NCBI RefSeq assembly: GCF_045037415.1 | Contig: NZ_CP173438.1 | From: Escherichia coli | GTDB taxonomy: Bacteria; Pseudomonadota; Gammaproteobacteria; Enterobacterales; Enterobacteriaceae | Direction: 5' to 3' (one strand) | DNA length: 64,000 bases | The notes under the pieces: model-generated | The model's database searches: none | Told to the model about the DNA's origin: nothing | Seen by the model: only the letters and a program-made list of their open reading frames with translations | Translations under genes and position numbers: made by a program | In this document: piece after piece, positions 61,655-62,341 of the stretch | Numbering within the stretch: the first letter of the stretch is position 1 | Layout: each line of letters begins with the position of its first letter

Positions 61655-62341
61655 TCACTCCTTCTCTTCTTTTCCGTAGTGGAGTTGGCCAATTTTGATA
61701 AGAGGGCGTCCCTGAGATTTGCGGTGTAGATTGGTATCGCGCAGAGAATACACACAGCCACAATATTCCTGCTGATAGAATTTTTCGCGCTTGCTGATTT
61801 CAATCATACGGGACGAGCCGCCCTGCTTGCGCCAGTTATAATCCCAGTACACCATACCCGGATAATGCGCAACAGCTCGCCGCCCACACTCGTTAACCTG
61901 CTGCATATTTTTCCAGCGTGAAATGCCCAGTGAACTGCTGATCACACTGAAACCATTTTCAGCAGCGTACAACGCTGTCCGCTCAAAACGCATGTCAAAA
62001 CACATGGTACAACGGATCCCCCTCTCAGGCTCCCATTCCATTCCTTTGGCACGTTCAAACCAGTTGTCGGTGTCGTAATCAGCATCGATAAACGGCACGC
62101 CGTGTTGTTCAGCAAAGCGAATATTTTCATCCTTACGAATTAAATACTCTTTCTGAGGATGAATGTTCGGGTTGTAGAAAAAGATGGTGTAGTCGATTCC
62201 CGAGGCCTGAAGCGCCTCCATCACTTCACCGGAACATGGAGCACAGCAAGAGTGCAGTAGTAGTTTGTTTGCCCCGTTTGGGAGCTCCAATTTAGGCCGT
62301 TTGAAATCAGCAATAGTCATAAATATTTTTATTGGGGTCAT
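61655..62341 (-). CDS. DUF208 / QueH-like protein (putative epoxyqueuosine reductase homolog)
   Basis: 228 aa with HSCCAPCS motif near N-terminus and CGC near C-terminus, as in QueH Fe-S enzymes. Confidence 0.6.

What the first reader, a model, noticed from the sequence alone, without database searches (positions are those of the whole stretch)
61655..62341. QueH-like (DUF208) Fe-S protein encoded in the phage early/nin region
The 228-aa product carries the HSCCAPCS and C-terminal CGC motifs characteristic of QueH-type epoxyqueuosine reductases. E. coli uses QueG for this step as far as I recall, so a phage-borne QueH homologue could modify tRNA queuosine status or take part in a 7-deazaguanine-related nucleic acid modification.
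Basis: partly seen in the sequence, partly recalled or inferred. Interest (0 to 1): 0.5.

Follow-up and report, generated by a model that had tools for sequence, protein, structure and literature searches.

The report
Prophage-borne QueH epoxyqueuosine reductase gene
A lambdoid prophage of E. coli carries an intact copy of queH, the vitamin-B12-independent enzyme for the last step of queuosine tRNA modification; databases already name the gene, but why a phage keeps it beside the host's B12-dependent QueG has not been studied.

Summary
Window 61655-62341, on the minus strand, is a 228-aa ORF with HSCCAPCS, CxxC and CGC motifs. The conserved start is probably the second Met at 62320, giving 221 aa.

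It is a QueH by every test run:
- Pfam PF02677 matches end to end (E=1e-65).
- All family-invariant Cys are present.
- An AF2 model (pLDDT 95) superposes on T. maritima QueH at 1.2 Å.
- It is 79-86% identical to core chromosomal QueH of Erwinia, Providencia and Photorhabdus.

RefSeq already names this exact protein QueH (WP_000150294.1). It occurs in 994 of 5426 complete E. coli genomes, always in lambdoid prophages, after the replication/DUF977 genes and before the nin-like/Q genes. dN/dS among alleles is 0.05-0.09. Host queG is in 5425 of 5426 genomes, so the phage gene is a second, cobalamin-independent route.

The prophage has no TGT/DpdA or preQ0-synthesis genes, so a DNA-modification role is not supported.

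Most likely the protein reduces oQ34 to Q34 on host tRNAs without B12, and is transcribed with the early-right operon. This is inferred, not shown.

Identity is already known. The biology is mildly interesting and easy to test.

The parts
61655..62320 (-). queH coding sequence, 221 aa plus stop, from the conserved start. The longest ORF extends to 62341, giving 228 aa.
   Evidence: ORF listing. RefSeq CDS WP_000150294.1 'epoxyqueuosine reductase QueH' at the same position in identical prophages. The upstream ATG is missing in allele L012. Pfam PF02677 E=1.2e-65.
62231..62254 (-). HSCCAPCS motif (residues 30-37 of the 228-aa ORF), carrying three conserved Cys.
   Evidence: Translation. CCAPC is the family consensus: 66 of about 70 representatives have Cys at the third position, where T. 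maritima QueH has Asp13. C25 and C26 are invariant and C29 is at least 90% conserved in alignment A2.
62000..62011 (-). CxxC motif (C111-T-M-C114), preceded by the invariant E106 and R110.
   Evidence: Aligns to C87/C90 of T. maritima QueH. Invariant in A2.
61754..61762 (-). CGC motif (C194-G-C196) within the Q-x-Y-C-G-C-x-[FY]-S block.
   Evidence: Aligns to C169/C171 of T. maritima QueH. Invariant in A2.
62321..62460 (-). Untranslated leader that travels with the gene. About 50-140 nt upstream are conserved among prophage alleles. It has no consensus promoter and no riboswitch.
   Evidence: Alignment of five alleles shows homology starting about 50-140 nt upstream of the start and ending about 6 nt after the stop. 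The promoter/terminator scan finds nothing on this strand here. Rfam finds nothing here.
62495..62935 (-). Upstream neighbour: a DUF977 / Ren-like protein gene, immediately upstream of queH in the six E. coli prophage contexts and the isolated phage that I read (in L012 one small opposite-strand gene lies between them).
   Evidence: PHROG 142 E=1.7e-46. RefSeq and GenBank contexts.
61262..61587 (-). Downstream neighbour: the hokD/sok type I toxin-antitoxin locus. This slot holds variable cargo in other prophages.
   Evidence: Rfam sok RF01794, 120.5 bits, at 61412-61587. hokD is annotated in identical prophages. Other strains carry relBE plus a KwaB-like gene, or an NgoMIV restriction-modification system, in this slot.

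Best explanation
The gene encodes a genuine, functional QueH, the cobalamin-independent Fe-S epoxyqueuosine reductase. It was captured from an enterobacterial chromosome and is now carried as an accessory gene in the early-right region of lambdoid (Rac/Qin/ompW-site type) prophages. Once made, the enzyme would use its [4Fe-4S] cluster and an adjacent iron site, held by the CCxPC, CxxC and CGC cysteines, to reduce the epoxide of epoxyqueuosine (oQ34). The substrates are the host tRNAs for Asp, Asn, His and Tyr, and the product is queuosine (Q34). E. coli's own enzyme, QueG, needs vitamin B12, which E. coli cannot make de novo, so oQ persists when B12 is lacking. The phage gene would make the last step of Q synthesis independent of B12 in cells where it is expressed. 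The gene has no recognisable promoter or terminator of its own and sits between the replication genes and Q. It is therefore most likely transcribed with the early-right operon after infection or induction. Shown here: family membership, fold, catalytic residues, purifying selection, coexistence with queG, and absence of DNA-modification partners. Inferred: the activity on oQ-tRNA in E. coli, the timing of expression, and any benefit to phage or host.
For: Family and fold:
- Pfam QueH matches full length, E=1.2e-65.
- T. maritima QueH is matched at E=8e-22 with the single sequence and 7e-58 with a profile.
- The AF2 model has pLDDT 95.4, and the top PDB hits are all QueH, with target-normalised TM 0.92 and rmsd 1.2 Å.

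Catalytic residues:
- All seven family Cys are present, as are the invariant N, E, R, K and Q positions.

Origin:
- The closest relatives, at 79-86% identity, are named QueH and sit in core chromosomal contexts.
- In Providencia the gene lies between tmcA and purC/bamC/dapA.
- In Photorhabdus it is in a non-phage chromosomal context.
- In the Erwinia sp. protein's contigs it lies between purL and glrK/glnB/hmp/glyA.
- The prophage copy differs from these no more than they differ from each other: 83% versus 83%.

Selection:
- dN/dS is 0.05-0.09 with dS up to 0.45 among prophage alleles, all of which are intact.
- 984 of 994 genome hits cover at least 80% of the gene.
- The gene is present in an isolated phage, HannyBb.

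Redundancy with the B12-dependent enzyme:
- queG is in 5425 of 5426 genomes and in the same genome as the identical prophage.
- QueG of E. coli is cobamide-dependent (PMC11841063).
- QueH is the cobamide-independent alternative (bioRxiv 10.1101/342006; PMC5372724).
- oQ34 persists in bacteria grown without B12 (PMC6850298 citing Frey 1988).

Transcription:
- There is no promoter-like or terminator-like site next to the gene on its strand.
Against: - No activity, expression or phenotype data exist for this prophage copy in any paper I could search.
- QueH is described as replacing QueG in species that lack it (PMC6063277). Here it coexists with QueG, so its benefit is unclear.
- NAU/NAC codon usage of the phage genes (0.53-0.54) is not higher than that of flanking host genes (0.59). 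There is no codon-level sign that the phage has a special need for Q.
- None of the phage tRNAs seen in these prophages (Arg, Ile, Thr, Gly) is a Q substrate.
- If the gene is transcribed only from the repressed early operon, it would be silent in lysogens. Its retention in prophages that look defective would then need another explanation.
- The simple consensus scan cannot exclude a weak or non-sigma-70 promoter.
Confidence: 0.78

Rival explanations
1. The gene is a lysogenic-conversion (moron-type) gene. It is expressed from the repressed prophage and benefits the host by keeping tRNA fully Q-modified when cobalamin is scarce, for example in B12-poor niches or in btuB-deficient cells. The enzyme chemistry is the same as in the best explanation. 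Only the time of expression and the beneficiary differ.
For: The gene is kept intact in nearly one fifth of complete E. coli genomes. Some of the carrying prophages look degraded: the window prophage has an IS insertion and a split tail-tip gene, and the gene also occurs in Rac/Qin-like elements. It sits next to a slot for host-acting cargo such as hokD, relBE, a KwaB-like gene and a restriction-modification system. About 50-140 nt of upstream leader travels with the gene.
Against: No sigma-70-like promoter lies upstream and no terminator lies downstream, unlike classic morons. No growth effect of deleting queG was seen in the one relevant paper read, and that test was only in a metE-deletion strain supplied with cobamides (PMC11841063). 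No expression data are available.
Confidence: 0.3
2. The protein takes part in a 7-deazaguanine modification of phage DNA, or of another nucleic acid, rather than host tRNA.
For: Phages are known to place preQ0-derived 7-deazaguanines in their DNA (PMC6884629 and PMC10516641, listed). QueH acts on a 7-deazaguanine nucleoside.
Against: Such a system would need a TGT/DpdA-family transglycosylase and usually preQ0-synthesis genes. The fully annotated prophage has none of TGT/DpdA, FolE, QueC, QueD, QueE, QueF or QueA. The words epoxyqueuosine, QueG and QueA occur in the 2023 survey of phage 7-deazaguanine derivatives only as one title in its reference list. The protein is no more diverged from housekeeping tRNA QueH than those are from one another.
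Confidence: 0.03
3. The gene is a neutral passenger or a decaying remnant with no current function. It would have been carried along with the DUF977/replication module.
For: It is redundant with queG in virtually every host. It has no promoter of its own. Phage-oriented databases give it no function: PHROG 3217 is labelled 'unknown function'.
Against: dN/dS is 0.05-0.09 at dS up to 0.45, and every allele examined is intact with all catalytic residues. 984 of 994 hits are near full length. The cassette recurs in prophages with different immunity, replication and downstream modules.
Confidence: 0.05
4. The protein is a neofunctionalised QueH-fold protein serving phage-host conflict, in defence, counter-defence or as a tRNA-binding decoy. 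The suggestion comes from its position beside a defence/toxin-antitoxin cargo slot.
For: Neighbouring cargo in other strains includes hokD, relBE, a KwaB-like gene and an NgoMIV restriction-modification system. PHROGs labels the upstream DUF977 protein 'Ren-like exclusion'.
Against: There is no PADLOC match. All catalytic residues are retained, and identity to housekeeping QueH is 79-86%. queH itself stays constant while the cargo next to it varies.
Confidence: 0.04

Closest known systems
Chromosomal QueH of other Enterobacterales (Erwinia sp., Providencia, Proteus, Photorhabdus, Gibbsiella and others)
   Same: 79-86% amino-acid identity over the whole length, the same size (214-222 aa), the same Cys motifs and the same basic C-terminal tail.
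   Different: Those copies sit in core chromosomal neighbourhoods. This one sits in the early region of lambdoid prophages and coexists with QueG.
Thermotoga maritima QueH (PDB 7LC5, 7LC7, 9DEU)
   Same: The same fold, with target-normalised TM 0.92 and rmsd 1.2 Å over about 179 columns. The CC, CxxC and CGC cysteines are conserved.
   Different: Only about 30% identity. T. maritima has Asp13 in CCAPD, where this protein and about 94% of the family have Cys in CCAPC. The enterobacterial and prophage proteins have an extra basic tail of about 25 residues.
QueG (E. coli yjeS), the cobalamin- and [4Fe-4S]-dependent epoxyqueuosine reductase
   Same: It catalyses the same reaction, oQ34-tRNA to Q34-tRNA (PMC5372724).
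   Different: It belongs to an unrelated protein family and needs cobalamin (PMC11841063; PMC5175355 abstract). It is a core gene in 5425 of 5426 genomes, against an accessory prophage gene in 994 of 5426.
Phage 7-deazaguanine DNA-modification clusters (DpdA plus preQ0 synthesis genes, as in phage 9g and relatives)
   Same: Both are phage-borne genes that belong to 7-deazaguanine chemistry.
   Different: Such a system would need a DNA transglycosylase and precursor synthesis genes, and this prophage has none of them. The words epoxyqueuosine, QueG and QueA occur in the 2023 survey only in one title in its reference list.

Membership tests
QueH (PF02677 / DUF208 / COG1636) epoxyqueuosine reductase | Full-length match to the family profile | tested here: met
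   PF02677 E=1.2e-65, query residues 27-201 against model positions 1-174 of 175. A profile of 40 homologues hits only QueH chains in the PDB, at E=7e-58.
QueH (PF02677 / DUF208 / COG1636) epoxyqueuosine reductase | Conserved metal-binding cysteines: CCxP[C/D], CxxC and CGC | tested here: met
   C32, C33, C36, C111, C114, C194 and C196 (228-aa numbering) are all present. These columns are invariant or at least 90% conserved across diverse representatives.
QueH (PF02677 / DUF208 / COG1636) epoxyqueuosine reductase | QueH three-dimensional fold | tested here: met
   AF2 model with pLDDT 95.4 and pTM 0.91. The top five PDB matches are T. maritima QueH structures, with target-normalised TM 0.90-0.92 and rmsd 1.2-2.0 Å. 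The next hits, TtuA and LarE, have E-values about 10 orders of magnitude weaker.
QueH (PF02677 / DUF208 / COG1636) epoxyqueuosine reductase | Reduces oQ34-tRNA to Q34-tRNA without cobalamin | not testable with these tools
   Requires LC-MS of tRNA nucleosides or an enzyme assay. Inferred from 79-86% identity to housekeeping QueH.
QueH (PF02677 / DUF208 / COG1636) epoxyqueuosine reductase | Usual distribution: replaces QueG in genomes that have tgt and queA but lack queG (PMC6063277) | tested here: not met
   It coexists with queG: the same genome carries both, and queG is in 5425 of 5426 E. coli genomes. This is a distribution pattern rather than a structural criterion, so it does not argue against membership.
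Phage/bacterial 7-deazaguanine DNA modification systems (Dpd-type) | A TGT/DpdA-family transglycosylase encoded in the element | tested here: not met
   None among the annotated genes from integrase through tail genes in the identical prophage.
Phage/bacterial 7-deazaguanine DNA modification systems (Dpd-type) | preQ0 synthesis genes (FolE, QueD, QueE, QueC) in the element | tested here: not met
   None annotated. PHROG scans of the neighbouring genes give Ren-like, HNH, DNA methyltransferase or unknown function.
Phage moron (autonomously expressed lysogenic-conversion cassette) | Own promoter upstream and terminator downstream | tested here: inconclusive
   The consensus scan finds neither next to the gene on its strand. 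A conserved leader of 50-140 nt does travel with the gene. The scan is crude and no expression data exist.
Known anti-phage defence systems (PADLOC) | Match to a defence-system protein model | tested here: not met
   No PADLOC family at E<=0.001 for QueH, the DUF977 protein, the 90-aa ORF or the DUF968/HNH protein. The DUF1627 protein has only a marginal partial hit at E=8e-4.

The most novel reading that the evidence does not exclude
Temperate lambdoid phages of E. coli use QueH as an auxiliary tRNA-modification gene. On induction or infection, or at a low level in lysogens, it would convert the oQ-tRNA that accumulates when cobalamin is limiting into Q-tRNA. This would uncouple the host's queuosine status from B12 supply and give a measurable advantage in translation or fitness to the phage or the lysogen. 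That would make the oQ/Q status of tRNA a strain-variable, prophage-determined trait in about 18% of E. coli, including the O104:H4 outbreak lineage and at least one O157:H7 strain.
Probability: 0.3. Interest if true: 0.5.

Novelty: already known. Interest (0 to 1): 0.28.

Why it matters
The identity of the gene is not news. RefSeq names this exact protein QueH in about a thousand complete genomes.

Three points are of some use:
- No paper in the searchable library discusses a prophage-borne QueH.
- Phage resources still call it unknown: PHROG 3217 has no function, and phage HannyBb annotates it as hypothetical. Phage annotation could be updated directly.
- Nearly one in five E. coli strains carries a second, B12-independent route for the last step of queuosine synthesis, under strong purifying selection. 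This predicts that such strains make Q rather than oQ in B12-free media.

That prediction bears on comparisons of tRNA modification between strains. It also offers a simple test of whether oQ and Q differ in function, which has been hard to show.

Tried and rejected
- NCBIfam scan: no model hit. RefSeq nevertheless names the protein QueH, so the name must come from something other than an NCBIfam model; the negative says nothing about identity.
- Riboswitch search: I looked for a preQ1 or other riboswitch in the leader with Rfam in permissive E-value mode. Only the downstream sok RNA was found.
- Promoter/terminator scan: nothing beside the gene, and counts were no higher than in shuffled sequence.
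- Codon-usage test: I asked whether the phage has a special demand for Q-decoded NAU codons. Phage late genes gave 0.54 and early genes 0.53, against 0.59 for the host flank, so there is no signal.
- Phage tRNAs as possible substrates: the window prophage encodes tRNA-Arg(UCU) and a CAU-anticodon tRNA (annotated Ile). Other carriers encode Thr and Gly tRNAs. None has a GUN anticodon.
- More distant phage QueH genes: the GenBank 'Bacteriophage sp.' contig I checked (MT835504.1) and the 'Acinetobacter phage MD-2021a' record are bacterial chromosomal contigs. The first carries pot, argH, asd and topB; the second carries soxR, cynX and tadA. They are not evidence for phage carriage.
- IMG/VR scan: the top 80 loci returned were all 100% identical E. 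coli prophage copies, so nothing was learned about diversity.
- Stx-phage link: the O104:H4 copy is in the ompW-site prophage. The O157:H7 Z1767 copy is in a prophage with no stx gene annotated in the stretch read, which runs past Q to the lysis genes.
- Defence-system membership: no PADLOC hit.
- Primary QueH papers: Zallot 2017, Li 2021 and Miles 2011 are not held. Statements about the [4Fe-4S] cluster with an adjacent iron site, and about experimental validation of the family, rest on PDB entry titles, secondary citations and my own recollection.

Full report
**1. Observation**

Window 61655..62341 holds an ORF on the minus strand. The plus-strand reading of the same interval is full of stops. 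From the first ATG the product is 228 aa. It contains HSCCAPCS (residues 30-37), CTMC (111-114) and CGC (194-196).

A divergent allele (L012) has a stop just upstream of the second Met. All alleles share that Met and RefSeq starts there. The real product is therefore most likely 221 aa, encoded by 61655-62320.

**2. Identity**

- Pfam PF02677 (QueH) matches end to end with E=1.2e-65.
- The only solved structures matched by sequence are T. maritima QueH entries, at E=8e-22 with the single sequence and 7e-58 with a 40-sequence profile.
- An AlphaFold2 model built on that alignment has mean pLDDT 95.4.
- Its five best PDB matches are all T. maritima QueH, with target-normalised TM 0.90-0.92 and rmsd 1.2-2.0 Å. 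More distant PP-loop/adenine-nucleotide-hydrolase-like proteins (TtuA, LarE) follow at E-values about ten orders of magnitude weaker.
- I aligned the protein with representatives from a 1.8-billion-protein library, in which 4774 relatives had E<=0.001. The protein carries every conserved cysteine and the other invariant positions.
T. maritima's CCAPD (Asp13) is the exception, since 66 of about 70 representatives have Cys there.
- NCBIfam has no model for the family.
- PHROGs has one, phrog_3217, hit at E=1.9e-138, but labels it 'unknown function'.

**3. Is it already known?**

- The DNA is found in 994 of 5426 complete E. coli genomes. There is usually one copy, almost always chromosomal, and it is annotated 'epoxyqueuosine reductase QueH'.
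- The exact 221-aa protein is WP_000150294.1. It was seen on at least 1000 contigs. Its 90%-identity cluster has 2308 members, from Escherichia, Shigella, Enterobacter and Klebsiella.
- IMG/VR returned 80 loci with a 100% identical copy in E. coli-type proviruses.
- One isolated phage, Escherichia phage HannyBb, carries a copy with 95.2% tblastn identity (96.8% over the 221-aa product), annotated only as hypothetical.
- I found no paper in the searchable library that discusses a prophage QueH.

**4. Context**

Window 49653-64000 is 99.99% identical to a prophage integrated next to ompW in strain 4/1-1. Window 27101-64000 is 99.995% identical to the same prophage in strain 439. The RefSeq annotation of those records can therefore be read for the part of the prophage that lies beyond the right end of the window.

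The gene order is int, xis, exo, ydfD, dicB, ydfCBA, repressor, cro, ydaT, O-like, DnaC-like, DUF1627, DUF977, queH, hokD, DUF968/HNH, rusA, Q, DNA methyltransferase, two tRNAs, iraM, esterase, lysis genes, terminase, head and tail. The left part of the window (1-24000) is host DNA, including topA, yciQ and the trp operon.

In six other contexts, queH again follows the DUF977 gene and precedes the nin-like/Q region. In L012 one small opposite-strand gene lies between them:
- a Rac-like element next to trkG;
- two Qin-like elements;
- the O104:H4 ompW-site prophage;
- an O157:H7 prophage;
- phage HannyBb.

What lies just after queH varies. It is hokD in the window, relBE plus a KwaB-like gene in one strain, and an NgoMIV-type restriction-modification pair in another. 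Aligning five alleles shows that the unit travelling together is the coding sequence, about 50-140 nt of leader, and only about 6 nt after the stop.

**5. Origin and selection**

The nearest relatives outside the prophage cluster are 79-86% identical proteins named QueH from Erwinia, Providencia, Proteus, Photorhabdus, Gibbsiella, Rahnella and others. Where I looked, these sit among core genes:
- Providencia: between tmcA and purC/bamC/dapA.
- Photorhabdus: in a non-phage chromosomal region.
- The Erwinia sp. protein's contigs: between purL and glrK-glrR-glnB-hmp-glyA.

The prophage protein is as close to Providencia QueH (83%) as Providencia is to Photorhabdus (83%), so there is no sign of accelerated divergence. 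Among prophage alleles, dS reaches 0.45 while dN stays at or below 0.025. This gives dN/dS of 0.05-0.09, and every allele examined is intact. That is strong purifying selection on the protein while it has been resident in phages.

**6. Relation to the host pathway**

- E. coli's own oQ reductase, QueG, is cobamide-dependent (PMC11841063; PMC5175355 abstract).
- queG is present in 5425 of 5426 complete genomes. It is also in strain 4/1-1, which carries the identical prophage.
- QueH is described as the cobamide-independent, non-orthologous alternative, found in species that lack QueG (bioRxiv 10.1101/342006; PMC6063277).
- tRNA from bacteria grown in B12-free glucose-salts medium carries oQ34 rather than Q34 (PMC6850298 citing Frey et al. 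1988).

The prophage gene therefore adds a second, B12-independent route. That departs from the usual either/or distribution of the two enzymes.

**7. Mechanism proposed**

The protein most likely binds a [4Fe-4S] cluster and an adjacent iron through its seven cysteines, and reduces the epoxide of oQ34 on tRNA-Asp, -Asn, -His and -Tyr to give Q34. The metal-site description rests on the PDB entries and on my recollection of Li et al. 2021, which I could not read.

The gene has no consensus promoter upstream, no terminator downstream and no riboswitch. It lies inside the rightward early transcription unit. I therefore infer expression after induction or infection. Expression in lysogens is not excluded.

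I put about 0.97 on family membership, about 0.8 on oQ-to-Q activity in E. coli, and much less on any particular benefit.

**8. Rivals**

- DNA-modification role: it would need a TGT/DpdA-type transglycosylase and usually preQ0-synthesis genes, and the prophage has none. The words epoxyqueuosine, QueG and QueA occur in the 2023 survey of phage 7-deazaguanines only in one title in its reference list.
- Decaying passenger: contradicted by the selection data.
- Defence or counter-defence role: suggested only by the neighbouring cargo slot. There is no PADLOC match, and all catalytic residues are kept.
- Lysogenic-conversion variant of the main explanation: it remains open, and differs only in when the gene is expressed and who benefits.

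**9. Things that gave nothing**

- Phage genes are not enriched in NAU codons relative to host genes.
- The phage tRNAs are not Q substrates.
- Two records filed as phages that carry more distant QueH genes proved to be bacterial chromosomal contigs.

**10. Verdict**

The object is an already catalogued member of a characterised family, so novelty is 'already known'.

The residual interest is biological. A B12-independent queuosine-maturation enzyme is maintained under purifying selection in temperate phages of a host that already has the B12-dependent enzyme. This gives a simple, testable prediction about oQ/Q status in about 18% of E. coli strains. Interest: 0.28.

Noticed in passing
window 61262-61587 (minus strand): A hokD/sok type I toxin-antitoxin locus lies directly downstream of queH. 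Rfam sok RF01794 scores 120.5 bits at 61412-61587. A promoter-like site lies at 61622-61594 and a terminator-like site at 61191-61174.
   Followed up: partly
window 31877 (ORFs 29806-31932 and 31809-33278, minus strand): Relative to the otherwise 99.995% identical prophage in strain 439 (L011), the window lacks one G at 31877. This splits the 1157-aa tail-tip (J-like) gene into two overlapping ORFs. It is either a real frameshift, which would make the prophage defective, or a sequencing error.
   Followed up: partly
window ~26863-29165 (minus strand): An IS21-family element (ISEc12, istA and istB) sits at the tail end of the prophage, next to a truncated Ail/Lom gene. This is a further sign that the prophage is degraded.
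   Followed up: no
window 42685-43217: A tandem repeat of 162 nt x 3.3 copies (95% matches, in frame, 54 codons) lies inside the 861-aa gene annotated as phage portal protein.
   Followed up: no
window 56637-56713 and 56814-56889 (minus strand): Two phage tRNA genes, tRNA-Arg(UCU) and a CAU-anticodon tRNA that ARAGORN calls Met and RefSeq calls Ile. They lie just downstream of a DNA methyltransferase gene (56939-57988). Neither is a queuosine substrate.
   Followed up: partly
L014 6896-8535; L100 11872-13882: The position right after queH is a variable cargo slot. One Qin-like prophage has a KwaB-like (Kiwa) gene pair and relBE there. An O157:H7 prophage has an NgoMIV-type restriction enzyme with a cytosine methyltransferase there.
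   Followed up: partly
L095 (MT835504.1) and L098 (CAKLQH020000001.1): Two records filed as phages that carry QueH homologues are bacterial chromosomal contigs. The first carries potABCD, argH, asd and topB. The second carries soxR, cynX and tadA. In the second, QueH is labelled 'putative prophage protein'.
   Followed up: yes
PHROG phrog_3217; L002 8001-8687 (phage HannyBb): Phage annotation resources still list this family as 'unknown function' or 'hypothetical protein', although it is a clear QueH. The label could be corrected.
   Followed up: yes
window 53276-55144 and 55390-55725: The late region carries a SASA-family carbohydrate esterase gene (53276-55144, minus strand) and an IraM anti-adapter gene (55390-55725, plus strand). 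Both are further host-acting accessory genes in the same prophage.
   Followed up: no
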